Assembly (NCBI GenBank): GCA_964016885.1
Contig: OZ024740.1
Span: 316,262,001-316,326,000, forward strand
Length of the DNA stretch: 64,000 nt
Direction of reading: 5' to 3'
From: Eledone cirrhosa
Taxonomy: Eukaryota
A program made the position numbers and the translations under genes. Shown one piece after another: positions 96 through 53,679 of the stretch. How positions within the stretch are numbered: position 1 is the first letter of the stretch; every line of letters begins with the position of its first letter. The notes under the pieces were generated by a model. It made no database searches, was not told where the DNA came from, and saw only the letters and a program-made list of their open reading frames with translations.

Positions 96-1117
96 TCAAT
101 GGGACCCTTGAGCTTCATGGAGTCTAGCTAACTCTTTGACGTGAGGCTGAATTTTCCTAAGATGTAACCAGAGATCTCCACGTGTAATTACATTGTAGCG
201 GTTGCGAGCCTTACTGTGCAGTCTGGAAACAGCATCAAACCTCCTCTCGACTAAGTATTGGAAAAGGCAGAGCAAATCCCTTAGCCTCTGCATGTAGGTG
301 TGGAAATCGACGCTGAATTTCCTCTTGCATCCCAAAAAGAGGTTCACCTATTTTGGGAAATCTAATTTTGATCATGTCATTTGCTTGAAGTTCAATGAAT
401 ACTTCCTGAAATTTAACATCCAAATTGTTGACGTTAGCTATGAAGTGATCTGCTATCCACATTGGAATGTCCATCGGCAAAAGGTTGACAAACCATTCTC
501 TCATGTTGTCTTGAGCGCACAGAGGTGAGTGGAGTTGGTCATCGCTTACAATGTTTTGAACATTGGCGACACTAGAAAATTATAGAATTCCCGTCAACAA
601 AGATTCCTTTCGATGACATTCAATTTGGCCAGGAATGTTTTCACAGCATTCCTTGCTTTAAGCAAGGTGATCTTCTTCCCCTGCAAAGCCAAAATGACGC
701 TATTGCATTTGTCGAAGATGTCGGTGAGGTAGGACTTTTCTTGTACAGTTCTGTGTTGCGTCCTCGCAGAAACTCAATGATAGAGTCGAAGAGTTCAAAG
801 AAGTGAGTAAAGCACTTGCCCTTTGAAAGCCACCTCACTTCAGTATGAAGGAGCAACTTGATGAATTCTTTATCATTATCTTGGCACAGTTGCTGGAAAA
901 TTCGTTCTTTGAGGGAATGCCGTTTGATAAAATTGATGACATCAATGGCCACCTGCAAGGACTTGCTCAGCGGCTTGCTGAGTTTCTTCGCAGCGAAGTG
1001 TTGTCGATGAATGACACAATGAACAACAAATACAGATAGATTTTCTCTCTTCAGAAGAGTGACGAAACCCTTATGTTGGCCAACCATTGCTCTTGCGTCG
1101 TCCGTAGCACGATACAA
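96..1117 (-). mobile_element. hAT (Buster/Charlie; ZBED8/SCAND3-like) transposase relic, frameshifted
   Basis: Motifs TDDARAMVGQHKGF, HCVIHRQH, LLLHTEVRWLSKG and the C-terminal FPxxYLVERRF are spread over several frames. Confidence 0.85.
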
Positions 1118-1118
1118 T

Positions 1119-1322
1119 GTGTGTTGTATGTGGTCCTAGATGTATGTATTACCTGCCTGTATGTTGTATGTAGTCCTAGATGTATGTATTACATGCTTGT
1201 GTGTTGTATGTGGTCCTAGATGTATGTATTACCTGCCTGTGTGTTGTATATGGTCCTAGATGTATGTATTACCTGATTATGTGTTGTATGTGGTCCTAGA
1301 TGTTTGTATTACCTGATTATGT
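1119..1322. repeat. 40-bp minisatellite, ~5 copies
   Basis: GTCCTAGATGTATGTATTAC recurs at 1133, 1173, 1213, 1253, 1293. Confidence 0.95.
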
Positions 1323-24462: not shown

Positions 24463-27400
24463 TCATCATCATCATCATCATCATTTTACGTCCGCTTTTC
24501 CCTGCTTGCAAGGGTGGGACGGGTCTTATTCAGCACAGCATCTCTCCACTCGTCACGGTCCCTCGTCATCTCCACCGTGAGCTTCAATGATCTGAGGTCT
24601 GTTCTCACCACCTCCGCCCATGTTTTTCGTGGTCTACCTCTACCTGGCACTTCTTCACCCATCGGTCATCCTCCATGCGCATCACATGTCCATACCACCT
24701 CAGTCTCCTCTCCCGTACACTACACTCCATCCCTCTCAGACACAGTTTCTCTCTCAACACATTTATGCTGGGTCGTTCACGCACATTTACACTGCACATC
24801 CAACGGAGCATGCTTGCCTCGTTTCTCTCCAGCCGTCGCATATCCTCTGCGGTTGCTGCCCATGTCTCACTACTATGCAGCATCGCGCTCCTCACACAGG
24901 CATCATACAACCGGCCTTTCGTACGCAGGGAGAAACCCTTCTTCGTCAACAGAGGAAGCAGCTCCCTAAACTTCTTCCAACCCGTCCTTATTCTAGATAC
25001 TATGGCCTCGGAACACCCTCCTCCCATGCTAATCTGATCTCCTAGGTACCGGAAGCTATCCACCACTTCTATAGCGCCCTCTCGCATTTGAAAAATGTGT
25101 CTATCAGTGCGACTTCTACTGTCTAATTTCCCTGTACATCTACTGCATACATATTTCTCCCTACCTGTTAGTTTGCCTGCTATCCCGCTACATCTCTTGT
25201 GTACCCAGGACCTGCATTGTGTGCATTTTATAGAATTTATGCCAGTTCCTTTTCTGCATATCGAACATGGCCATTTCCCTGACGGAATCAGGGTTTTGTC
25301 CTCTTTTCTACTCATCAACACTTTTGTCTTAGCTAGATTTACTCTCAGTCCTCTTGCTTCCAACTGCTGTTTCCATAGCCGGAATTTATTCTCTAGCTCC
25401 TCTACTGATTCTGCCATAAGAGCCAGATCGTCAGCATAGAGAAGTTCCCATGGACAGCCAGTCTTAAACTCCTCTGTTATGGCTTGGAGTACTATAATGA
25501 ACAAGAGCAGGCTGAGGACCGAACCCTGATGTACTCCTACTTGTATCTGGAATTCCTCACTAAACTCCATTCCTACCCTGACTTTACTGAGAGTACCTCT
25601 GTACAAAGTTTGCACTGTCCTCACAAGCCATTCCTCAACACCTAGCTTCCTTAGGGACCACCAGATGACAGATCGGGGTACCCTATCAAAGGCCTTCTCT
25701 AGGTCAACAAAGGCTAAGTATAGTGGCTTATTCTTCTCTAAGAACCTCTCTTGCATTTGTCTCACCAAGAAGAGGGCATCTGTTGTACTCTTCCCAGGCA
25801 CAAAACCAAACTGCATCTCATCTAGTTTGACCCTTTCTCTAATTAGTTGTGCTAAAATCCTTTCTGCCACTTTCATAACCTGATCTATCAGTTTTATACC
25901 CCTATAATTGCTCCTCTCCAAAGCATCCCCTTTACCTTTGTAGCAATTTATGAGAATACTGCTGCACCAGTCTTTGGGTATGACACCACCATATATAGCC
26001 TGATTGATGATGCGTGCAACCAGTTTAGTGCCTACGTCCCTTGATGCCTTCAGCATCTCAGCAACTATTCCCGATGGTCCGGCCGCCTTACCATTTTTCA
26101 TTTCCCTAATCGCCTCTTGGACCCTATATTCGTCAATCTCAATAGCTGGTCCCTCTGTCGGATCTACCAAGGGTAATTTCTCTCTCTCCCATTCGTTCTC
26201 CACATTCATCAGTCTCTCATAATGACATTTCCAGGCCTCCTTTTTCTGGTCATTCGTGACACTAAGTACACCAGCATCATCCCGGACACATTTATCTCCA
26301 ACAACATCCTGATTTGCATTGACACACTGCCTTGCAATGTGGAACACCGCACGCCTCTGATTTTCCCGTCGCAGAACATTGGCAAACCTCCTACTCTCTG
26401 CCTCCCTGCGTGCTAAGTACACCTGACGTCTAGCTTCTCTCTTAGTGGCTGTATATTCTTCCCTACTCCCACCCTTTTTCCAAGCCTTCCATGCTAGTCT
26501 TTTGTCTCTAATAGCCTTATCTACTGTGCTGTTCCACCACCAGGTCACTCTCTGTCTGGTTGGAGCTCTGCTCCAGCCACAAGTTTCATCAGTAGCCTGC
26601 AGTAAGTTGTCACGTAAGAACTTCCAGTTATTATCTATGTCATACGTCTCTAAATCGTCTTCTTTTTCGTCATATACATCTTGAAGGGCTTTCCTAAATT
26701 TGTATTTTAGTGAAAGGTCTTTTAGCTTCCAGACCTTTCTTCTCCACACCTTCCTATATGTCTCATTCCATCTCTTGCTTACTGAGATATCACTAACTAA
26801 CCTATGCTGTGGGGTACATTCTTCCCCAGGGTATGCCTTGGTATTAGACACTATCTGCCTGTCCCGCTGCCTAACTAGCAGGAAGTCAATCTGGCTTATG
26901 TGCTCACCAGATTTGTAGGTTATTAGGTGATTGGCAGGTTTCTGGAAGTTTGTGTTGCAAATAGTCAATGTACTCGCATCACAAAATTCAAGAAGTCTCA
27001 CTCCTTCATTTCTTGAACCGTAACCGTAACCGTGCCCACCATGTACCCCAGTGTAACCATCCTGGAGCTGTCCAACATGACCATTGAAGTCTCCTGCTAG
27101 CATAACGATGTCTCCGTCCTCTGTCATTGTAGTTGTTTGCAAAAGTTGCTCATAAAAGCAGTCTTTCTCATCTTTGCCTAGGCCTGCTTGGGGAACATAG
27201 ACCGAGATGATTATCAGTAGTCTCCTACCTACAACTAATCTAAGCTTAATTATTCGATTACTAACTCGAACTACCTCTATTGTCTTATTGATCCATTTCT
27301 CAGCCAGGAAAATGCCTATTCCCCCTAACCCATCATCCTTACCTACCCAGAATAGCTTATAGCTAAGACGCTTGCCTACGACTAGTCTCGCAGAGGCACC

Positions 27401-27730
27401 TCTCCATCTCACCTCTTGCACGCAGCACACATCCACCTGCCTTCTCTCCAGCATCTCCGCTATTTCAGCAGATCTACCTCTGAGAGTGCCAACATTAAGT
27501 GTTGCAACTCTGAGATGCGACGTCTTCATATTTTTTGTTGTTGTTCCTATGCTGTTTTGTTGCTGTGCTGATAAGCTTTTTGGCATTGATACACTGGTTG
27601 GATGCCCTTCCTAACACCAGCGCCACTTTACAGCATGGACTGGGTGCTTTTATTTGTGCCACCAGCACTAGAGAGGATGTCTTACTAGACTCAAGGGCCC
27701 TCTCTACCCCTCCATTTTACAGCATGGTCA
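24463..27730 (-). mobile_element. Near-full-length RTE LINE, family A copy 1
   Basis: 5'UTR with GGTGTTAGGAAGGGCATCC, APE+RT ORF, tail CCCTTGCAAGCAGGGAAAAGCGGACGTAAAA(TGA)n. Confidence 0.95.
24605..27529 (-). CDS. RTE ORF: APE endonuclease + reverse transcriptase + PHD-like finger; C-terminus frameshifted
   Basis: TLNVGTL, VQEVRW, AGDFNGH, SQIDF, QHRLV; FVDLEKAFD, GVHQGSVLS, LYADD; likely ATG at 27529 (shared with copy 2); 25-bp deletion at 24643/24644. Confidence 0.9.
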   Translation of the reverse strand: MKTSHLRVATLNVGTLRGRSAEIAEMLERRQVDVCCVQEVRWRGASARLVVGKRLSYKLFWVGKDDGLGGIGIFLAEKWINKTIEVVRVSNRIIKLRLVVGRRLLIIISVYVPQAGLGKDEKDCFYEQLLQTTTMTEDGDIVMLAGDFNGHVGQLQDGYTGVHGGHGYGYGSRNEGVRLLEFCDASTLTICNTNFQKPANHLITYKSGEHISQIDFLLVRQRDRQIVSNTKAYPGEECTPQHRLVSDISVSKRWNETYRKVWRRKVWKLKDLSLKYKFRKALQDVYDEKEDDLETYDIDNNWKFLRDNLLQATDETCGWSRAPTRQRVTWWWNSTVDKAIRDKRLAWKAWKKGGSREEYTATKREARRQVYLARREAESRRFANVLRRENQRRAVFHIARQCVNANQDVVGDKCVRDDAGVLSVTNDQKKEAWKCHYERLMNVENEWEREKLPLVDPTEGPAIEIDEYRVQEAIREMKNGKAAGPSGIVAEMLKASRDVGTKLVARIINQAIYGGVIPKDWCSSILINCYKGKGDALERSNYRGIKLIDQVMKVAERILAQLIRERVKLDEMQFGFVPGKSTTDALFLVRQMQERFLEKNKPLYLAFVDLEKAFDRVPRSVIWWSLRKLGVEEWLVRTVQTLYRGTLSKVRVGMEFSEEFQIQVGVHQGSVLSLLLFIIVLQAITEEFKTGCPWELLYADDLALMAESVEELENKFRLWKQQLEARGLRVNLAKTKVLMSRKEDKTLIPSGKWPCSICRKGTGINSIKCTQCRSWVHKRCSGIAGKLTGREKYVCSRCTGKLDSRSRTDRHIFQMREGAIEVVDSFRYLGDQISMGGGCSEAIVSRIRTGWKKFRELLPLLTKKGFSLRTKGRLYDACVRSAMLHSSETWAATAEDMRRLERNEASMLRWMCSVNVRERPSINVLREKLCLRGMECSVRERRLRWYGHVMRMEDDRWVKKCQVEVDHEKHGRRW

Positions 27731-31790: not shown

Positions 31791-33039
31791 TAGCTTATAG
31801 AATAGGATGAAAACCCTTAAAAGAGAAAAAAAGAAGTTGCCAGTGGCTGCTATGAAGAATTGAACCCCATATCTCCCAGATACTAGTCTTCACCCTATTT
31901 TATAAGTTACTTTATAGCATCTCTGCTCATGAGCATATCTTTATATTATCTTCAAAACATCTAAAGATACTAGATTTAATAACTGCTGCATATGACTAAA
32001 TTATGGCCTCTAAATGACTGCTCTACCTGTTAAATACAGCAAGCAAACTTTTCCTTTAATAAATCTTAAATGCAAGGACTACTATATTCAGGTACTAAAT
32101 GAATATAGTATAGTGAGAGACTAAGAGTTAGAACTCATCATCATTTAATGCCTGTCTTCACTGCTAGCGAGGGATTGATGGTTCATCACTGACCGAGTCA
32201 AGCAGACCCACTGACCTCTTAGATGGGATGGGGGTCTTTGTGTTGCTTATTATATACATTACAGCACTCTACCGAGTGCATTTTATCACAGCAACAGAAC
32301 TAGAAATAACGAAGAAACTATAATTATATATGGTTGCCAGCTGGTGGGAAAAACAAAAAGGTAGGCCAAAAAAAATGGAAATCCACCCTTAAAGATGACC
32401 TGTGCAGGTGTGGCATAAACTGGTTTCAAGCACCAGTCCTTGCAAGAGACAGAGAGAGAGATGGAAAAATATAGTTGCCATGAGGCTGGAGAAACCAGAT
32501 TACCAGATATATATATATAGGGTGTCCAGAAAAAATGTATACACACTTTGATTACCTGTACAGGCAATATTTATTAGTGCTGTTGAAGTGAGTATATATA
32601 TATCTCAGTATATATATCAGTATATAGTGGTGGTTTTTTATCCCCTATAATTAAACACATACCTTTATGTGTCTTCCTCTCTATATACTGATTTATAAAG
32701 AGCCCAGAATATATTCCTTGCGCTCATTAAATTATAAGAGATTAACGTGAGGTTTTAACTCCGTTTTTTAATTTTATATATATATATTATCGTAGGGTGG
32801 TTTATTTGTTGAAACAATTACTTTGTAGAGCTGGATACCCTTCTTATTTTAAACCACTCAATTATGAAGTAAGAATGGAGCTAACTGTGTGTTCATTCAG
32901 GCAAACTAAGCAGAGTTAGATACCTTGTTAAGGTGAATAACATGATAAATATTAATTCATTCAAACAATCAAGATCTACTCATGTTAGAGTATTGCTGTC
33001 TAAAAAAATGTATAAACCTCTTCATGAATTAATGTACTA

Positions 33040-33336
<297 letters not shown>

Positions 33337-33532: not shown

Positions 33533-33639
33533 TTAAGTGACGTATTCTTAAATCCTATTCAAACACCCTATATATATATATATATATATATATAGATAAT
33601 CATCGTTTTACGTTCATTTTTAAAACGTTGATGATATAT

Positions 33640-33830
33640 ATCATCATCATCATCGTTTAACATCCATCTTCCATGATAGCATGGGTTAGACAGGTTTGTC
33701 CCATTTAGAGGCAAGTTGGGTTTCTACAGCTGGATACCCTTCCTAACGCCAACCACATTTACAGTGTGTGCTGGGCGCTTTTTGTTGTGATACCTACACG
33801 ACCATTTACAGAGTGGGCTGGATGTTTGTG
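33640..33830 (-). mobile_element. Short RTE-tailed element containing 48-bp-type units
   Basis: GTTGGCGTTAGGAAGGGTATCCAGC and AACCCATGCTATCATGGAAGATGGATGTTAAAC(GAT)n. Confidence 0.8.
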
Positions 33831-33833
33831 AAG

Positions 33834-33868
33834 AAAAATATGGAACATTTCGTAAATTTGCGTGTCAT
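33834..33868 (-). pseudogene. RNU6: U6 snRNA 3'-end fragment
   Basis: ATGACACGCAAATTTACGAAATGTTCCATATTTTT versus U6 ATGACACGCAAATTCGTGAAGCGTTCCATATTTTT: 30/35 identical, all differences transitions. Confidence 0.85.
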
Positions 33869-35382
33869 ATATACACACACACACACACACAAATACCCAT
33901 CCTTTAATTATGTTTGAGCAACTCAACCAGATAAGTATGATCAGAAAATTACCAAGAAACTAGTGTAGACATAAACATACAACGATAAGGTTAACAAGAG
34001 GGAAAAATTCCTGCTAGTCTATATTTACCCCTTTAACAAATATGGATATATAATAATTAAAATAAGTTCAGTTAAACTGGAGAAATAAATGTAAATACAG
34101 CTGATGAATAACAATTCTATTTACTGTAATAAACTATACTAATGGCTACATGATGATGACAATATATGCTATAGATAATTTATAATAACTTGGTGCTCAC
34201 CAACTCGTCAAATGATATGAACAGAATAGCACAAGTAAAGTCTGCTGTGAACTTATTAGATAAGATGTGGAAACCTTATATAACCACAAAAATAAAAATT
34301 TAGATTATTCAAAGCCACAGTGGAATCAATTTTACTTTATTCCTGTGAATCATTGTCAGTGACAATACCTATCACCAAAGCTTTAGATGGTTGCTACACA
34401 TGAATGTTAAGGATGAAAAAAAAACATCAAAACTCTTCACCATATTACAAACAAAATTCTCAGTGTTAGTGAATGACTTGTTTTTTTATTGACAAAATTA
34501 AAGGTACTCTAAACAATTACAGCTTAAAGAGACTAACAGTAACAGTCAGGCAGAAAGACAAAAGGAAATGGGAAGTAGTTTAAAGCCAAACACTGCAATT
34601 ATGATCACTTAATTTTATACTAACAAAAGAAATATTCCATTGCTACTTTGAATAATTTCAAGTCATTCTGAGACTAATTCATATTTTGTATAGAAAATCT
34701 GAAAGACACCTCACTTTATAAGGAAATCTGTCAAAATACTGACTTAAAATGAGTAATTAAGTATTACTGTTATAAATTATCATTAACTAATAATACAAAA
34801 GCAGCAAATACTGTAAAATATAATCCCTTATGATATCTAGTTTTGTCTTATGTTCTGAAGTCTAACTTCCATATATCCCAAACTGGTCACAGCAAAATAT
34901 TTAGATTGATTCAATAGCCTGTACTCCTACAAAATGTATATTTTGTGGTCAATCTAAAGAAATCAAGATTTACTGGTATACTCCTGACATAAAAATATAG
35001 ACAAATCTCCTTTATAATTATATAACTTTTGGCAAGGTTCAGACTATTTAACTCACATTGTTAAAACTGTAGGAGTAATGATGAAGTTTAGTAATTCTAT
35101 CCAGAGTGAAACATGTCTTTCATCAACCCAATGAGTCTAGAACAAAAACAATATTTTATGGGACTGACCTACCATATATACTTTTATCACTGTTACTCCA
35201 GAACAGAATATTGAATGGACATTTTACTAAATGATGTTTTAAACAGAAAACTGTTTTACTATGTGATGTCTTCAACAGCTGGTTGAATCAAAAGTATTGA
35301 CCAAATGTGATGGGTCATACTTATAATCAAGATTATTTTCACAAAATTCAAATAAAATTTCAATGTGATATCAACAACTTAC

Positions 35383-38795: not shown

Positions 38796-39323
<528 letters not shown>

Positions 39324-40895: not shown

Positions 40896-41060
40896 CAATA
40901 ACCTGTACTGGGGACAAGGATCAAGAAAAAGCCTAACAATTGTTTGGGTCATTTTATTGTTAGGTTACACTTAGATTATCAATGGTTGGAACAAAAGAAA
41001 CTGTGACTCAGCTAGAAACACAGCAGAAAGTTATATGACAGATTTATTACATCATTTATC

Positions 41061-43900
41061 AAGGTCAGAAGCATCGACCCTGACTTCATCACAGTCACGG
41101 AAACATGGGCACATTCCTTACTCTGTGATGGGGTTTTCAGCATTACTGGGTACAACCTTTTACGCAAGGACCGCATTAATCGCCGTGGTGGTGGTGTGAT
41201 GGTCTACGTTCATTCAAACTTTTCGGTAATTCCTTGCGTTGATTTGAACGAATCACAGGAAGAAGTTTTTTTCTGTGACATACGTATGACCATGTCAACA
41301 CTTCTGCTTGGTGTTGTTTATCGCCCCCCAAACTACCATCAGGACACACAGCTTTGCGATATCCTCAGAGTTGCTGCCAAGAAAACAGCCACTTATGTGT
41401 TTATTGCAGGTGACTTCAATCATCCTGAGATCGATTGGGAAACCTTTCGTTGGCCACAAGGTGCAAACGATTTCCTTGAACTAGTGCTGGACTTAAACTG
41501 GTCACAAGTAGTCACCTCTCCAACAAGAGGTGACAACACTTTGGACCTGATCTTCACCACTACTCCTGAAGTGGTTATCAGTTGTACTACTGAGTAACCT
41601 CTAGGTGACTCTGATCATGCTATGATCATTGCCAATCTGGCTCTTGCGGGCAGCAACAAAAACCAGAGCCATCTCCAATCTGCTTGCTTTGATTGGAAGA
41701 AAGCGGATTGGAACTTGTATTGCACTGAGCTACAGCGCCCAAACTGGCATGAGATGTATAACTCTGGAGATGTGAACACTATACTCCAGAGCATCCTGGA
41801 CTCAATATGGATAGCGTGTGCAGCATCGGTGCCACGTAAGCAGAAAAAAAACCACCCCAAAAGTGCAATTTGGGAAACTTCAGCGGTCCGACTTGCCAGG
41901 AAAGAACGTCGGAACGCTGAACGGGAATATAAACTGCATAAATCAGATGCCAACAGAAAAAAGCGGAATAAATCTTCTAACCATCTCAAGCAAGTGACAA
42001 AGAAGGCAGTGCTTGAATTTGAACAGTGCATAGCAACCAATCCTGACAGTAAGGTGTTCTGGAAATATGTTCAGTTGGTCCTCTTCGCAATCCCCACACA
42101 AGCCAGATCACTGACGATCCCAAAGAATGCGCAGAACTCATTGCTGAGTGCTATGCAAGTATTTTTACTGTTGAAAACCAGAATGCACCATCTCCACCAT
42201 CTCTAACATCAAATTCCATAACAACTATGGAATTTACACCTGCAATGTTGCGACGTCACCTTAAGAATAAGTGCAACTATGCCTCCCCTGGTCTTGATGG
42301 TGTGACATACCTGCTTCTCAAGCGTGGCGGGTATTTCCTTTTGCGCCAGCTTTCTTTCTTCTTTCAATACTGACTCAACAATGGTGCTACTCCGGAGCAG
42401 TGGAAAACTGCCAGTGACATTCCCCTGTTCAAAAAGGGCAACCGCATGTCACCTGTCAACTATCGTCAAGTCAGTCTTACTAACTGTATGGCCAAACTGA
42501 TGGAATCCTGTGTCAGAGAAACACTTTGGAACTTCTGGAGCTCTCACAGCCTCATCCGGCCCTCACAGTTTGGATTTATCCCTAACTCCAGCTGCTGTGA
42601 TCAGCTTATCGAGTTCCTTGAAGACATCACCCGGATCACTGACAGCGGCTCATGGGTGGATGTTGTTTACCTTGACTTTGCTAAGGCTTTTAATTTTGTG
42701 CCACACAAAAGACTTATGGCAAAACTCTCTGCAATGGGTGTGAGGGATGATCTTTTCGACTGGTTGAAATCCTTCATTCTCAGCCGAAAAGAAGTAGTCA
42801 CGGTTCTAGGACAGCATCCTTCACCATATGAGATGTCATCTGGTGTACCGCAGGGATCTGTTCTTGGTCCCCTTTTGTTTGTGGCATATATTAATGACAT
42901 AGATGCCAACTTGCAGAATGCCACGGTACTGAAATATGCAGATGACATCAAGCTGTACCTTGAAATCAAAAGGACTGATCCTGAAATCTACAACTCTTTC
43001 CTACAATCGGACCTGGACACAATGCAGCAATGGATCACAGACTGGCAACTGAAGCTGGCTGTGGACAAGTGTACCACCATGCATTTTGGGAAAAATCCAG
43101 CGTCCACATACTCCCTCCACAACACTGATATCAAGAAGTCCTCTTGTGAACGTGACTTGGGCATTACTGTCAGCAGCGATTTGCGTTGGACAAAGCATGT
43201 CTCTAAGATTGTCAAGAAGGCCGAGGGTGTCTTGGCATCACTCAGCAAGACCTTTGTTAGCCGCTCTCCAGCCATCTATTTAAAACTGTATACAGCTATG
43301 GTACGACCACACTTGGAATTCGCATCATCAGTCTGGAACCCCTATCTTGCTCAGAACATTGACCTCCTGGAAACTGTTCAGAGACGTGCAACCAAGCGCA
43401 TACCCTCCATCAGACACCTACCATACTCTGAACACCTTGCTTCCCTGGGCATGGATTCATTGAAGCTCCGACGTCTGGCAATGGACTTGGTAAATACCCA
43501 CAAAGTTATTAACCATCTCGCCAATTGCAACCCTGAGCACCTTTTTGATCTCCATGTGTCTAACACACATGGACATGCCTACAAAATCAGAAAACAGCAC
43601 AGCTCCCATGACTTTCGTAGACATTTTTTCACGCTCAGAGTTGCTGAAGCATGGAACAAACTGCCTGCGTCAGTTGTTAGCTGCCGAGACACTGCATCCT
43701 TTAAGACACTCATGCTTCCCGAAATACGCCAAAACTACACCTGATGTACCCCTTCCATACACATGCACACATGTGTGTATCATGACTCGTGCACTGTTCA
43801 TTTTCCTGATGTTTGTGCATTGCCCTATGTACTGTACATGCACTTTTTGATGAGTTGTGGTGCACCTGGGCACTGTACACAATATTTCATTATTATTATT
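41061..43900 (+). mobile_element. CR1-clade LINE, 5'-truncated and disrupted (APE + RT)
   Basis: VTETW, VYRPPN, AGDFNHP, LDLIF; YLDFAKAF, VPQGSVLGPLLF, KYADD, FFTLRVAEAWNKLP; (ATT)n tail. Confidence 0.93.
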
Positions 43901-44619: not shown

Positions 44620-46410
44620 TGTTGATAAACTGCTACAAGGGTAAAGGGGATGCTCTAGATAGGGGAAACTATAGAGGCATTAAGTTAGTTGACCAGATCA
44701 TGAAGGTCACAGAAAGAGTTACAGCGCAACTAATCAGAGAGCGAATTGATCTAGATAAAATGCAGTTTGGGTTTGTGTCAGGTAAAAGTACCACAGACGC
44801 TCTTTTCCTTGTACAACTACAAGTACCTAGCTAAAAGTAAACCCCTCTATTTAGCTTTTGTAGACCTGGCGAAAGCCTTTGACAGAGTCCCCCGCTCCAT
44901 TATCTGGTGGGCTCTTAGAAAACTAGGTGTAGATGAATGGCTTGTGAGAGCTATACAAGCTATGTATAATGAAACAGTCAGTAAGGTTAGAATTAACAAT
45001 GAATATTGTGAAGAATTTAGTGTAAAAGTTGGTGTTCATCAAGGCTCTGTCCTTAGCCCACTCCTATTTATTATTGCCCTTCAGGCTATAACAGAGGAGT
45101 TCAAGACCGGCTGCCCATGGGAACACCTATACGCAGATGATCTAACGCTCATAGCTGAATCAATGGCTGAACTAGAGAAGAAATTCCAAACATGGAAGCA
45201 TGGCCTAGAATCAAAAGGCCTTAAAGTTAACTTGTCTAAGACTAAAGTTCTAGTTTGTAGAAAGGAAAATAGAGCACAGGTGCCCTCAGGGAAATGGCCA
45301 TGCTCAGTGTGTAGGAAAGGAGTAGGCAGAAATTCCATTTTATGTCCCAAATGCAAAGTATGGATACATAAAAGATGTAGTGGGATCACAGGTAAACTAT
45401 CTAAGAACATAGATTTTATATGTGGCCAATGCTCAGGTGCAATAAGTAGCAAGTGTCCACAGGATACTAGCTCCTTCTATTGCCCAGATGGTTCTATAGA
45501 AATAGTAGACACTTTCCGTTACCTGGGTGACGAAATCAGCAGTGGTGGAGGGTGTTCTGAAAGTACAGTAGCCAGAGTCAGAACGGGATGGAAAAAAAGG
45601 TGTCTCTCTAAAAATGAAAGGCAGATTGTATGACGCGGGTATACAAACAGCAATGCTACATGGCAGTGAGACATGGGCATTACGTGCAGAGGACCTGCGC
45701 AGACTGGAAAGGAACGCAGCATGCATGCTCTGTTGGATGTGTAATAGTAATATACGTGAATGGCAAAGCATAAATGAACTAAGTGAGAAATTAGGAATAA
45801 GAGGGATCAGATGCTGTTTACTCGAGAGAAGACTACGTTGGTATGGTCAGGTGATGCGCATGAAAGACGACAGCTGCATAAAAAAGTGCAGGGCGATCAA
45901 AATTGATGGTAGTTCCGGAGTAGGTAGACCCAGAAAAACCTGGGACGATCTGATAAATTCCGACCTTACACACTTGCACCTCTCTAAGACAATGACACTG
46001 GACCGAGATCTTTGGCGCTATGCAGTAATACAGAAGACCCGCCTTGCCTATGTACAAAGCGAAACCTACAGTCAGTAGGCACCTCTTATCCAAATATACA
46101 CCCCAATCCACTACCCCTACCCTATTTTCCCACTCCCACCAACACCACGAGATAATGAGATCTAGATCGTGTAGGTGTGTCACAACAAAAAACACACAGT
46201 CCACGCTGTAATGTGGCCGTGTAGGTAACACGGTAAAAAGTTCCCAGTTCCACACTGTAAATGTGGTTGGTGTTAGGAAGAGCATCCAGCCATAGAAAAC
46301 CTGCCAGATAGTCCTATATGAGCGAGACCAACCTTGCCTCAAGTGTGACAACTCCCGTCTAACCCATGCTAGCGTGGAAGATGGACGTTAAACGATGATG
46401 ACGATGATGA
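44620..46410 (+). mobile_element. RTE family B, 5'-truncated (RT + PHD-like finger + 3'UTR)
   Basis: LINCYKGKGD, GVHQGSVLSP, LYADD, CSVCRKG..CPKCKVWIHKRC; frameshifts; (GAT)n tail. Confidence 0.92.
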
Positions 46411-47282: not shown

Positions 47283-48250
47283 CCAGTCCACAGTGTAAAG
47301 TGATTGTGTAGGTGTCATGACGAAAAGCACCCAGACCACAGTGTAAAGTGGTCGTATAGGTGTCACGACGAAAAGCACCCAGACCACAGTGTAAAGTGGT
47401 CGTATAGGTGTCACAACGAAAAGCACCCAGACCACAGTGTAAAGAGGTCGTATAGGTGTCACAACGAAAAGCACCCAGACCACAGTGTAAAGTGGTTGTA
47501 TAGGTGTCACGACGAAAAGCACCCAGTCCACAGTGTAAAGTGGTTGTATAGGTGTCACAACGAAAAGCACCCAGTCCACAGTGTAAAGTGGTCGTATAGG
47601 TGTCACGACGAAAAGCACCCAGTCCACAGTGTAAAGTGGTCGTATAGGTGTCACGACGAAAAGCACCCAGTCCACAGTGTAAAGTGGTCGTATAGGTGTC
47701 ACAACGAATAGCACCCAGTCCACAGTATAAAGAGGTCGTATAGGTGTCACAACGAAAAGCACCCAGTCCACAGTGTAAAGTGGTCGTATAGGTGTCACGA
47801 TGAATAGCACCCAGACCACAGTGTAAAGTGGTCGTATAGGTGTCACGACGAATAGCACCCAGACCACAGTGTAAAGTGGTCGTATAGGTGTCACGACGAA
47901 AAGCACCCAGACCACAGTGTAAAGTGGTCGTATAGGTGTCACGACGAAAAGCACCCAGACCACAGTGTAAAGTGGTCGTATAGGTGTCACGATGAAAAGC
48001 ACCCAGTCCACAGTGTAAAGAGGTCGTATAGGTGTCACAACGAAAAGCACCCAGTCCACAGTATAAAGTGGTCGTATAGGTGTCACGATGAAAAGCACCC
48101 AGTCCACAGTGTAAAGTGGTCGTATAGATGTCACGATGAAAAGCACCCAGTCCACAGTGTAAAGAGGTCGTATAGGTGTCACAACGGAAAGCACCCAGTC
48201 CACAGTATAAAGTGATCATGTAGGAGTCAACAAAAAGCACGCAGCACTCA
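47283..48250 (+). repeat. 48-bp minisatellite, ~20 copies, continuous with an RTE-tailed element
   Basis: Unit GCACCCAGTCCACAGTGTAAAGTGGTCGTATAGGTGTCACGACGAAAA. Confidence 0.97.
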
Positions 48251-48418
48251 CTGTAAATGTGGTTGGTGTTAGGATGGGCATCCAGCTGAAGAAACCTAAC
48301 CAGAAACAGTTCTAAACGAGTAAGACATGGTCACCTGATCCAACTTGCCTCAAATGGGACAACCTGTCTAACCCATGCTAGCATGGAAAATGTACGTTAA
48401 ACAACAATGATGATGATT
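48240..48418 (+). mobile_element. Short RTE-tailed element (3' part of the array-bearing copy)
   Basis: GGTTGGTGTTAGGATGGGCATCCAGC...AACCCATGCTAGCATGGAAAATGTACGTTAAAC...(TGA)n. Confidence 0.85.
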
Positions 48419-49330: not shown

Positions 49331-51723
49331 ATAATATTGATTTCTTTATTAGCCACAAGGGCGCAACAAGAAAAGGGGACAATACAAAGACATGCCGGGG
49401 ATTTTACATACAGTCGTGTAAAAAATATAAAAACAAACAATTTCAACAATCGAAATCCCCAATAGGGGGGAGGCGCCACAAATGGGTTGTTTAATACCCC
49501 GTCGATAGAACAACCCTCAACTCAAGGAGCGTGTTGTGCAAGTGCTCCTTTCTTCCTTTTGCTCTCTTCCTCAACCTACAGGCTTATAAACAGAGAAGGC
49601 CCAATCACTCGGGCCATTTTCGCTTCATTCACCCACCTTTCAGTAAATTTACTGGGGTGCAGTGCCTCTCTCTCCACCCTGATTCTCCTTCTAAAGTGAT
49701 ACTTAAAGAATGGAATCAATTGTTGTCCGGAGAGAAAGGCATCTGTCCTCAGTCCTCTCAACCTCGTCCACCATATAACTTCTTTCACCATAGCCACCGT
49801 ACAGAGGAAAACCGCCTCTCTTTCGTTTTTGAAAGAGTCTGGCGGTTTGATCCTTACTATGGATTCGGCAGTCAACTGTATTTGTCCCATACGCGACAGC
49901 AGTTGTTCTGCATAGTTCCACAGGTCGCTTACGCCCGGGCAGTGTACAATTGCGTGCAGAACTGTTTCAATGTCCTGCGCACATCTTGGACACGTCCTCT
50001 TGGAAGGATCCCTGCCAGGGCGTCCATGCCTGTAGATCTTGTCACGAACCGGTAGAGCTCCTCGGTAGCACTGCCAGGCCAGGGACCTCTGGAAGTTGTC
50101 CATAGGTCCCGGGCGGAAAGTCCTACCAAACATACTGGTGAGCTCATCGTCTTCGACGCCCAGAGTCTCTCCGAGCACGTCGTCGCCCTTGTAACGTACA
50201 ATCCCTCTATAGAATATCGAAGTGGAGTATCCACTGATTGCTGCGCCCGCTTGCCAGAGGACTGTGAGCGCCTGAGCGCATTCAATGTGCCAGGCGCCCA
50301 TCGTTTTCGGTCTTTTCTTCACCCAGGACTGCAGCTCCGTTAGCGAGACGAGCTGTGGGAAAGCCTGTCTCACAAACGGTGCCCACACCGGTTGGGGGTC
50401 GGTGAGGAATACCTGGAGATGCCGCAGCCTCAGCGCATGTTTGCGCATAATAAGCCACGGCATTCCCAGCCCTCCGTTGGAAGGGTGCTGACAGCAGACG
50501 GATCTCCTCACCAGCGGAGCCTGCTTCTTCCACAGAAACTGGAAGAGCATGCGTTCCATCTTGGCGAGGTGTTCACGGGGACAAGGCACGACAGTCAAGC
50601 GGTAGTAGATGACGGACGCTATGAAAGTGTTCGCCACCTCCGCTCGACCTTTCAAGGACAGTTTGCACTCTGCCCACTTCTGGGTGAGTGCAAACACCTT
50701 GGCCGTGACCTCGTTCCAGTTTTTCTCCACCTGGAGGTCTGGACCGAACCAGACCCCGAGCAATTTCACCGGTCCGTCCGTCCAGCGTCCAACGACGCTG
50801 TCGGATGTCATCGGTTTGCCTCTCCACGTACCGAGTTGCAAACCGACAGACTTGTCTGGGTTTAGTTTTGCTCCCGTCAGCGTTTCGTATTCTTTCAGTA
50901 TGTTGCCGATCACCCCGATTTCCGAGGTGCTCGACACCATTACTGTCACGTCGTCGGCATAAGCCGACGCCGCTTTGCGCAGTCCCGGTTCTAGGGGGAT
51001 GCCCTGCAACAGCTACAATTTCCGCAGTAGTGGCTCTAGAGTCAATACATACAGAATGGAGGAGAGAGGGCATCCCTGTCGAATGGAACGCGTGATTGCG
51101 AACGGCTCCGATAGGTAGCCGTTCACCTTGACCCTCGAGCAGATGCTGGTGTGCATCGCCTTGATCCAGCCTCTGAACACGGGACCGAAACCGGCCGCCT
51201 TGAGAACCGCTTCCAAGTATCGATGGTCGACCCTATCGAATGCCTTAGACTGATCCAAGTTGATCAGAGCCCCACCGAAGCCGGGTTTACTACCCACCCT
51301 CTCTATGATGTATCGCATGAGGTGGAGGTTGTCGTGTATGGACCTGGTCGGGATTGCACACGTTTGCGCTTTCCCTACCAGGTTCTCGACGACAAGCGCC
51401 AACCTCGTCGCTAGCACCTTGGCTAAAATCATTAACTCTGTGTTGAGCAGAGTTATGGGCCTGAAGTTGTTAATTTCGTCCCCCTTGTTCTCGTCTTTCC
51501 TGATCAGCGTTACTATGCCCTTGCCTGCAGAACTGGGAATTCTCCAGTTCTGCTGCCAATTGCAGTAGACGGCTTCGAGGACGCCAGAGAACAAGTCCGG
51601 CATGCCTATGTAAAATTTGTAGGGTAGACCATCTAGACCGGGTGACTTGCGTTTCCCGCAGCGGCCCAGAGCGTCCCGTATCTCAGTGTCCGTGATCGGT
51701 CTTTCGCAGAACTCGGCGTCCAT
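49331..51723 (-). mobile_element. Tx1/L1-clade LINE, 5'-truncated (RT + CCHC), one in-frame stop
   Basis: SPGLDG, FRPITLLN, LDQSKAFDRV, RQGCPLS, AYADD, CPRC..ETVLHAIVHC; stop at 51013-51015; AATAAA at the 3' end; GC-richer than flanks. Confidence 0.93.
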
Positions 51724-53679
51724 TACAAGTCCAAGATAAGCTAAGTTGTTCTGTCTTTTTCTGCCAAAACAAAATTACATTTAGGAGATTGGATTCTATT
51801 TTTAGAGCTAAAAAAAATAAAATAAAAATACAATCCTGAAGTCAAGATAAAATCTTTCAAATATTGCTCACAGCTATTAAAATAAAGTAAATCAATTTCT
51901 GTTGGTTTCAACAAGGAGTATTTCAATTGTTCAATCAATAGAATTGAAATAATATGTAAATGGTTGAGTATTCCACAGACGTTTTTAGTCAATGTAATTC
52001 TCAGGGAGAACCAGCATGACACATTGTGATATAGCTGGTTCTTTGAATTACATGTACCATCCATTCAACAGGCTTCCAAGCAGTCCCCATTAACAGATTT
52101 TCTCTGTCAAGGTTTAGATCAACCCAAGACTATGGTAAAAGACACTTTCGTAGTAAGATACAACCCAGGGTTTCATGAGTTGAAGCAAACACTTCTTAAA
52201 TATTTTACCATACCTCAAACTATTACACTGAATCTAAAAAAAATAAATAAATAAAAACTCCATTATTTACAGCCTTTATACTTTGAGTAAGTTATGTCCT
52301 TTTATACTTTAAACTTGATGATCCAGTAATGATGTCCATGTGGTTATTCAATTCACTAGAAATATTATAAAATCTCCCTTAAATTACACCTTACTGTTGT
52401 AAGAAAATGGACAAAAAATGTAATCTTATACAACCCTAAAAAGATGCCTGTAATCATAAGTCTACTCAATTACGGCTTACTGGGAGGGGAGCATGACAAC
52501 TCATCTTAAACTTAAAACATTGGTTAATCTTTGATCTAAGATGGATCAAGTCCATGACAAAAAGCACCAAGTCCACCCTGTAAGGTGGTAGTGTTTGTGC
52601 CCCAACAAGCACCCAGTCAGCCCTATAAGGCAGCGGTGGTGGTGCCACAATAGAACACACCTGGTTGGTACTTGGAAGGGCATCTAGCCATAAAAACCAA
52701 ACTCAAAACAAAACTTATGAGCAAGATATGGTCACCTTAGAACAGTGCAACCTGTCCAATCCATGCAAGCATGGAAAATAGAAGTCAAACGATGATGATA
52801 CACTGTTACTCAGCACTAAACCTACATTTGTTCCTGTAAAATAGTTATTTCTCCAAAGTTACTCATACATTTAATCCCGTGTGCCATTTGTACATAAATG
52901 CTGAACATTTGTAATTATATCCTTGAAATAAATTATTAAAATATCATTCCTATCTTTAAACATATCAGTAATCAACATAAACTGTAGAGTTTTTCTTATG
53001 CAAACCCTTAATTTATCAAAATACAAATTCTTCGAGTAGCCCTGGTATATATGACATACTAATCCTAAAAATTCAGTACATTCAACACATTGACAGCATT
53101 GGTCCACTAGTACAATATATTTTAACATTGTATAAAGTATACTGTTACAGAACATTTTTCTTCATGTGTCCAGAGATCATGCAAAGCTATTTATAAGTCT
53201 GTCAAGATTGATATAAAAAACTTTATACACTTCCTTGGGAGGGGAAAAGGTCAGCTTTCTGCTCTTGTCATTTTTTCTACAAGGAATTTTTCAACATGCT
53301 AACACATATGTATATGTATGTGCATAGATTTATATGTATGAGTATATATATAAAGGCGCAACACAGACACGCTTACAAAAATACACACTCACAGACACAG
53401 CGTAGCAAATAGAATACCAGTCGCTGTTTTGCTATAGCTTTTTCACCATCCCCTTCCTCCCTTTTCCACACAAACACACACACACACACACACACACATT
53501 GTGTGACGGACAGACGGAAGTCACTCAAATTTATCTATAGATATTATAATTATCAAATAACTGAATTTACTTACACTTTTTTAACTCAAACTATTTTAAA
53601 TACTTGATTTATTATAAAATGTAGTTTGCTTGAAGCATTGTGTATAATATATAATGTAGAAAATGATATATATATATAT

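What the first reader, a model, noticed from the sequence alone, without database searches (positions are those of the whole stretch)
33640..33868. U6 snRNA 3' end fused in sense to an RTE-tailed element (candidate U6/RTE chimeric retrocopy)
Seen: on the minus strand the last 35 nt of U6 (30/35 identical, ending at the natural ...CCATATTTTT) are followed after ~9 nt by a short element ending in the RTE (GAT)n tail. Known: mammalian U6/L1 chimeras have this order, U6 3' terminus joined to LINE RNA, attributed to RtcB ligation or template switching. Inference: an analogous process may operate with RTE machinery in this lineage. I know of no such report for cephalopods but cannot search.
Basis: partly seen in the sequence, partly recalled or inferred. 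Interest (0 to 1): 0.72.

Follow-up and report, generated by a model that had tools for sequence, protein, structure and literature searches.

The report
U6–RTE chimeric retrocopy, one of many
A dead fragment of the splicing RNA U6 sits directly in front of a short RTE jumping-gene remnant in an intron, likely pasted in as one copying event; such fusions are known from vertebrates, and this genome holds dozens more with many kinds of partner.

Summary
Confirmed. Window 33868-33834 (-) is U6 nt 73-107 (30/35 to the genome's own U6 gene; chance about 3e-8 per window). After 3 unassigned bases (not 9) comes a 190-nt element built from an RTE 3' UTR, with a (GAT)5 tail, in an intron of a PRELI-family gene. 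The junction is unique in the genome, so this is not a U6-headed SINE. Of 68 dispersed U6 copies examined, 58 are followed in sense by a retroelement, none in antisense (random flanks: 72 sense, 97 antisense of 1020); 10 partners are RTE-type. Other partners: CR1-group tails, tRNA-SINEs, CRE-like LINEs and hammerhead-bearing Penelope-like repeats, 11 joined exactly at the predicted ribozyme cut. Best reading: one RTE-driven insertion, joined by a template jump (about 55%) or RNA ligation (about 33%). U6/RTE chimeras are published for anole and opossum (PMC4476161); my four searches found no cephalopod report. The scan already noted this phenomenon on other pieces of this genome and on other genomes. 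This locus is a new, degraded member of a known kind.

The parts
33834..33868 (-). U6 snRNA fragment, nt 73-107, 5'-truncated, natural 3' end with five T
   Evidence: 30/35 to U6 gene L002; Rfam U6 20.1 bits
33831..33833 (-). 3 junction bases not assignable to U6 or to the partner family (non-templated addition or decayed family sequence)
   Evidence: alignment offset 3 against family copy L033; family starts listed
33655..33830 (-). RTE 3'-UTR-derived short element; starts about 13 nt inside the family's shared 5' start; lacks one 48-bp unit and a roughly 44-nt internal stretch near 33721
   Evidence: 175/188 identical to L033 without gaps; alignment A1; 395 exact copies of a diagnostic 28-mer
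33640..33654 (-). (GAT)5 RTE tail
   Evidence: same tail ends RTE copies in the window
33869..33891 (-). 5' flank: (TG)n then TATAT; landing site; TATAT is a possible short target-site duplication
33634..33639 (-). 3' flank ATATAT; other half of the possible duplication, unresolvable in a TA run
38865..39033 (-). upstream exon of the host gene (PRELI-like family)
   Evidence: Pfam PF04707 E 4e-14; exon call
33169..33271 (-). downstream exon of the host gene; the chimera lies in an intron before it, sense to the gene
   Evidence: PF04707 E 0.004, below cut-off; AG/GT read
33004..33081 (-). second, older U6-like copy in the next intron (not part of the same insertion)
   Evidence: Rfam U6 E 0.008; alignment score 44 against a maximum of 34 in 150 order-2 Markov simulations
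24463..27610 (-). reference RTE LINE copy (APE, RT, PHD; GAT tail), used to identify the tail's clade
   Evidence: the label RTE rests on recalled features (single APE-RT ORF, motifs, short-repeat tail), no tree built
45572..46410 (+). RTE 3' end whose UTR and tail are the closest LINE match to the partner within the window

Best explanation
A 35-nt U6 3' end and a 190-nt RTE-3'-UTR element lie joined head to tail in a TA/TG run and likely arrived as one retro-insertion, the RTE reverse transcriptase likely running off the element's RNA and jumping onto the oligo-U end of U6. Shown: structure, order, strand, RTE origin of the tail, uniqueness of the junction, genome-wide recurrence with strand bias. 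Inferred steps: (1) an RTE protein binds the element's tail and primes at a TA run; (2) it copies the roughly 190-nt RNA to or near its 5' end; (3) it adds a few untemplated bases and continues on U6 from its 3' end; (4) it stops at A73, at the 3' arm of the U6 internal stem-loop beside G72, and the cDNA end anneals to the TA target; (5) the copy has no promoter and decays neutrally. That it is one chimeric insertion I put at about 0.9; the confidence below is for the jump route at this locus.
For: Single event: 58 of 68 dispersed U6 copies have a sense partner within 15 nt, 0 antisense; controls 72 and 97 of 1020. L061 is a near twin from another RTE subfamily (U6 from nt 73, five T, RTE 3' UTR, GAT tail, TA flanks). 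Divergence of the two parts is compatible with one age (5/35 against 13/188, Fisher p 0.17). Short TATAT on both sides. Jump route: 3 extra bases here. All 4 RTE-tailed tRNA-SINE partners, and 11 of 12 tRNA-SINE partners in all, start within about 6 nt of the SINE's normal 5' end, with 0-8 extra bases; a Pol III 5'-triphosphate end is a poor RtcB substrate (PMC6789731 Discussion). A tRNA-Sec copy with a 3' trailer ending in T4 heads a CR1 tail at the point where U6 joins (L239), and such an end is expected to be 3'-OH (own knowledge). R2 RT jumps end to end and needs untemplated additions, mostly A (PMC8857657 passages), which would pair with U6's U tail (inference). U6 5' ends cluster at nt 64-75 in 21 of 68.
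Against: Five of the six U6 joints to RTE LINE 3' ends have no extra base, and two share one joint with a third 3 nt away (L063, L101, L096), as expected for ligation at an RNA cut. Eleven hammerhead-family joints sit exactly at the predicted 5'-OH cut with no extra base, so a ligation route probably works in this genome. The 3 extra bases here could be decay of the family's own sequence in a 7-14% diverged copy. PMC8857657 notes that 3-nt A overhangs are unproductive for jumping and that human chimeras arise by pre-ligation; in HeLa extracts a 5'-triphosphate L1 RNA was trimmed and then ligated. The target-site duplication cannot be told from the TA run. The cluster at nt 64-75 lies next to the edge of my selection (last 32 nt required). 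The partner library was assembled after I had seen the partners.
Confidence: 0.55

Rival explanations
1. RNA ligation first: RtcB joined U6 (2',3'-cyclic phosphate) to a 5'-OH fragment of the RTE-derived RNA, and the RTE protein then retrotransposed the chimeric RNA, truncating it inside U6.
For: Established for human U6/L1 (PMC6789731). The partner starts about 13 nt inside its family's shared 5' end, so the original end is gone. U6 keeps exactly five T. Zero-extra-base joints in 5 of 6 RTE LINE partners and exact joints at hammerhead cuts in 11 loci.
Against: 3 unassigned bases at this joint; SINE partners joined at their normal 5' start and a trailer-bearing tRNA-Sec head are hard to get by RtcB. 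A hammerhead cut also defines the RNA's 5' end, so an end-to-end jump would give the same exact joints.
Confidence: 0.33
2. Two independent insertions: a U6 piece (carried by something else, or captured in repair) landed at the 5' edge of an existing RTE element because both favour TA/TG runs.
For: TA runs are insertion hot spots here: remnants of further tails lie just downstream (33633-33600), and 13 of 1020 random positions sit in or before a sense RTE sequence. No clean duplication.
Against: Solitary 5'-truncated U6 copies without a partner are rare: 10 of 68 were unclassified by script, and 4 of those were assigned by eye or motif (L047, L081, L104, L109). No TA run separates U6 from the element; the family's usual first 13 nt are missing exactly where U6 sits.
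Confidence: 0.08
3. The unit is a copy of an amplifying U6-headed SINE family.
For: 24 U6/CR1-tail fusions share nearly one joint; a table of an Octopus repeat annotation lists 'U' and 'U-L1' SINE classes (PMC13282606).
Against: The exact-pattern search for this junction returns only the window; joints, U6 lengths and U6 gene variants differ from copy to copy; U6 needs upstream promoter elements.
Confidence: 0.03

Closest known systems
U6/RTE and U6/RTESINE1 copies of opossum; U6/RTEX-2 of Anolis; U6/L2 and U6/Mon-1 of platypus (Doucet et al. 2015, PMC4476161; passages and section 10 read)
   Same: U6 3' end upstream of a short non-L1 LINE or partner-SINE 3' part; U6 usually 5'-truncated; duplications small or absent; simple-repeat tail.
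   Different: Invertebrate genome; partner is an ORF-less RTE-3'-UTR family; the same genome adds CR1-group, CRE-like and hammerhead/Penelope-like partners (the paper has one unresolved CR1 case and, in the parts read, none of the other two).
Human U6/L1 chimeric pseudogenes, RtcB model (Moldovan et al. 2019, PMC6789731; abstract and first part of Discussion read; Law and Burns 2025, PMC11838501; abstract, outline, two passages)
   Same: Order and strand; U6 ends in its T run directly on retroelement sequence.
   Different: Mostly full-length U6 on a poly(A)-tailed L1 with clear duplications; here 35 nt of U6, a (GAT)n tail, a TA target and 3 extra bases.
Minimal hammerheads of Penelope-like elements (Cervera and De la Pena 2014, PMC4209133; first quarter of text read) - for the side finding only
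   Same: Type I minimal motif with palindromic helix III, the U3-A8 core variant and inverted pairs 100-700 bp apart are all seen in the partner families; one family-A copy follows a GIY-YIG remnant.
   Different: The part read reports low cleavage in vitro and no U6 fusions; here U6 marks the predicted cut in genomic DNA.

Membership tests
U6/LINE chimeric retrocopy | U6 sequence ending at its natural 3' oligo-U | tested here: met
   30/35, five T
U6/LINE chimeric retrocopy | Directly followed in sense by a LINE or partner-SINE 3' part with its tail | tested here: met
   3-nt joint, RTE-UTR element, (GAT)5
U6/LINE chimeric retrocopy | One target-site duplication around both parts | tested here: inconclusive
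   TATAT on both sides, inside TA runs
U6/LINE chimeric retrocopy | Both parts arrived together (orthologue or empty allele) | not testable with these tools
   no relatives held; ages compatible, p 0.17
U6/LINE chimeric retrocopy | Recurrent, strand-biased association beyond chance | tested here: met
   58 sense, 0 antisense of 68; RTE-type 10/68 against 13/1020
RTE-clade partner | Tail and UTR continuous with an APE-RT ORF end in sister copies | tested here: met
   window LINE ends; L207 and L215 carry the diagnostic 28-mer with an RTE-type ORF end upstream
RTE-clade partner | RT groups with RTE clade in a tree | not tested
   clade label from recalled features and from PMC13282606 listing RTE as an active Octopus LINE group
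snRNA-headed SINE (amplifying family) | Many copies sharing one head-body junction | tested here: not met
   1 match genome-wide, the window itself (exact pattern only)
RtcB-ligated chimera | Seamless joint of U6 T run to a 5'-OH end; chimeric RNA before insertion | tested here: inconclusive
   3 extra bases at this locus; no usable RNA run

The most novel reading that the evidence does not exclude
In this invertebrate germ line U6 acts as a general trap for free RNA 5' ends, and its fossils record two routes side by side: seamless ligation to 5'-OH ends made by Penelope-type hammerhead ribozymes (11 of 14 hammerhead-family loci join exactly at the predicted cut, five families), and reverse-transcriptase jumps from intact SINE and LINE-tail RNAs. 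That would be genomic evidence that minimal animal hammerheads cut in vivo, and that U6 capture extends to Penelope-like and CRE-type elements. The window's locus is one RTE-type entry in that record.
Probability: 0.5. Interest if true: 0.7.

Novelty: new member of a known kind. Interest (0 to 1): 0.4.

Why it matters
The locus itself is a decayed pseudogene with no sign of function. It extends U6 chimera formation, so far described in the vertebrate papers I read, to an invertebrate RTE system. The surrounding set matters more: joints with RNAs of known or predictable 5' chemistry (hammerhead 5'-OH, Pol III triphosphate) make the old question 'template switch or RNA ligation' testable within one genome, and give indirect evidence on whether Penelope-type hammerheads cleave in vivo.

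Tried and rejected
Rfam at gathering level finds nothing in the window. Rfam E-value scan of 20 loci showed no hammerhead family among the 150 of 235 rows listed, which were U6 and TA-driven miRNA noise; hammerheads were therefore called by my own type I pattern and by eye. BLAST with the junction gave three hits that seemed to span U6 and element (L035, L041, L042); inspection showed TA/TG flank plus the family's normal start, no U6. Idea that the 27-nt piece after U6 in L063/L096/L101 marks a U6-headed SINE: rejected, it is the ORF-end/UTR of an RTE subfamily with 9871 matches. Idea that the 65-nt CR1 tail is itself a hammerhead or HDV ribozyme: rejected by eye, no core. The first classifier had a wrong CRE reference and a circular family-D reference; corrected, whose last loop crashed, so duplications were listed for only 5 of 10 intended loci and two of those (L067, L068) used a wrong tail position. 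In one search L060 was auto-labelled family F; by eye it is family C. L101's RTE match is only 27 nt and has no tail. L145's tRNA-like head was found neither by Rfam nor ARAGORN; ARAGORN did not recognise the three SINE heads as tRNA genes, so 'tRNA-SINE' rests on recalled tRNA-like motifs. Sequencing runs: no RNA holder listed for the U6 gene stretch; read laying not used. Papers: searches (0 hits) found no cephalopod or invertebrate U6-chimera report; subscription journals and all supplements were not seen.

Full report
Observation. On the minus strand, window 33868-33834 matches nt 73-107 of the genome's own U6 gene copy L002 at 30 of 35, ending in five T. From base composition, 3e-8 such matches are expected per window and 0.0014 per genome; a reversed-pattern control gave 0 matches genome-wide against 192 for the U6 end at up to 3 mismatches (the window's own copy, with 5 differences, is not among them). 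Three unassigned bases follow, then an element from 33830 to a (GAT)5 tail at 33654-33640. The unit sits between a (TG)n-TATAT run and ATATAT, in an intron of a PRELI-family gene on the same strand.

The partner. Its tail matches the 3' ends of LINE copies in this window that follow reverse-transcriptase ORF ends (77-88%), one of them a 1001-aa APE-RT-PHD frame. I call these RTE from recalled features; no tree was built. A diagnostic 28-mer has 395 exact copies. Of 30 examined, 11 begin at one shared point behind a TA run, at least two (L207, L215) continue upstream into an RTE-type ORF end, and the rest are truncated or mixed. So the partner is an ORF-less family of about 290 nt derived from an RTE 3' UTR. 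The window's copy is 175/188 identical to L033 without gaps, begins about 13 nt inside the shared start, and has lost one 48-bp unit and about 44 internal bases. The junction pattern occurs once in the genome (exact matches only).

Is the adjacency chance? The genome holds a tandem U6 array on C19 and two single gene-like copies. I examined 68 dispersed loci: all 59 distinct dispersed ones fetched from the 100 of 192 pattern matches that were listed (two gene copies and one duplicate fold-back locus dropped) plus 9 more from the Rfam search. With a library of 17 reference stretches cut from non-U6 insertions, 58 have a sense match starting within 15 nt of the T run, 0 an antisense match, 10 none. 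Of 1020 random flank positions, 72 matched in sense and 97 in antisense. RTE-type partners: 10 of 68 against 13 of 1020, p 3e-7. The library was built after I had seen the partners, which inflates the classified share but not the strand bias. Partners: CR1-group tail 24 plus a second CR1-type end 2; RTE LINE 3' ends 6; RTE-tailed tRNA-SINE 4; other tRNA-SINEs 8; CRE-like ORF ends 2 by script and a third by eye (L047); hammerhead families 12 by script and two more by motif or eye (L081, L104). L061 repeats the window's anatomy with another RTE subfamily. Joints, U6 lengths and U6 variants differ between copies, so these are separate events.

Mechanism. A single RTE-driven insertion explains order, strand, tail and flanks; the ages of the two parts are compatible (p 0.17); the duplication is unresolvable. 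How U6 was joined is open. For a jump of the reverse transcriptase: 3 extra bases here; 11 of 12 tRNA-SINE partners join at about their normal 5' start with 0-8 extra bases, though a 5'-triphosphate is a poor RtcB substrate (PMC6789731); 22 of 24 CR1-tail joints fall within four bases of one point where 30 of 70 sampled U6-free copies also begin (one listed U6-linked copy was not refetched), and one of those carries a tRNA-Sec with a T-ended trailer as its head (L239); R2 RT jumps end to end after untemplated additions (PMC8857657). For ligation: five of six RTE LINE joints are seamless, two at one base; and 11 loci from five families join with no extra base exactly behind the predicted hammerhead triplet (A: L076, L078, L106; B: L053, L103, L108; C: L060, L066; D: L090; E: L014, L081), with L104 and L044 probable and L051 one base off. 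Family A has 6009 exact copies, the published U3-A8 core variant and, in one copy, a GIY-YIG remnant upstream. Against over-reading: family B has a core change in both native loci seen, family C showed a regular 5' core in 1 of 3 full natives, family F's helix I is doubtful, no cleavage was tested, some families may be non-autonomous retrozymes, and a jump at a ribozyme-defined 5' end would give the same joint. I put the window's joint at 0.55 jump, 0.33 ligation. U6 5' ends fall at nt 64-75 in 21 of 68 loci, four at 73 as here, next to the internal stem-loop and G72, which is methylated in human U6 (search listing only); a stall there is an inference, and the cluster borders my selection limit.

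What is known. Doucet et al. 2015 (PMC4476161; passages and section 10) report U6 chimeras with RTEX-2, L2 and a SINE in anole, L2 and Mon-1 in platypus (U6 mostly 5'-truncated, short duplications), and 5'-truncated U6 on RTE_Mdo and RTESINE1 in opossum without a clear duplication. The window's unit fits that class; only the duplication and the orthologue test remain open. Searches found no cephalopod or invertebrate report and none linking U6 to Penelope hammerheads; subscription journals and supplements were not seen, and an Octopus repeat table lists small 'U' and 'U-L1' classes without comment in the passages read (PMC13282606). After my own analysis I looked up the scan's notes: two reports on other pieces of this genome and several on other genomes describe the same U6 fusions, including the hammerhead-site joints. 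They agree but are not independent evidence.

Verdict. Interest 0.4 for the locus with its context; the two-route reading would deserve about 0.7 if confirmed.

Noticed in passing
window 33081-33004 (-): A second, much more decayed U6-like copy (about nt 21-107 with a 12-nt gap) 750 bp downstream, same strand, next intron of the same gene; score above all 150 simulations. No partner recognised. Two U6 copies this close are unexplained.
   Followed up: partly
L076/L077, L078, L106, L053, L103, L108, L060, L066, L090, L014, L081: U6 joined exactly at predicted hammerhead cut sites of five Penelope-like or retrozyme families; L060, L076, L103, L108 and L109 also show an inverted U6 piece upstream, as if U6 and partner were copied in one cDNA.
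   Followed up: yes
L047, L064 (=L050), L105: U6 joined in sense at three different points to the ORF end of a CRE-like element (restriction-like endonuclease motifs in L168; clade label recalled, no Pfam support).
   Followed up: partly
L121-L150, L232-L271: A CR1-group LINE has a large class of tail-only copies of about 65 nt that start at nearly one point 12-14 nt behind the stop codon (30 of 70 sampled); heads include a tRNA-Sec with trailer (L239), a tRNA-like half with trailer (L145) and an unidentified T-ended stretch (L128).
   Followed up: partly
L063, L096, L098, L101: Four of six U6 joints to RTE LINEs lie within 7 nt of the ORF's apparent stop codon (read by eye); could reflect ribosome-linked RNA cleavage, numbers too small.
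   Followed up: no
G000:C19:31780605-31840331: Tandem array of about 32 U6 gene copies, roughly 1.8-kb period, of a sequence variant distinct from the single copies L001 and L002; both variants occur among the chimeras.
   Followed up: partly
L075: U6 joined to an unclassified sequence with AATAAA and a short A run, flanked by an inverted repeat; possible U6/mRNA chimera.
   Followed up: no
window 47283-48263: The 48-bp unit of the RTE 3' UTR expanded to a 20-copy tandem array; similar arrays elsewhere.
   Followed up: no
window 41016-43744 (+), 49576-51774 (-), 235-1135 (-): Other mobile-element remnants by their translations: a CR1-like LINE, an L1/Tx1-like LINE and a hAT-like transposase fragment; labels recalled.
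   Followed up: no
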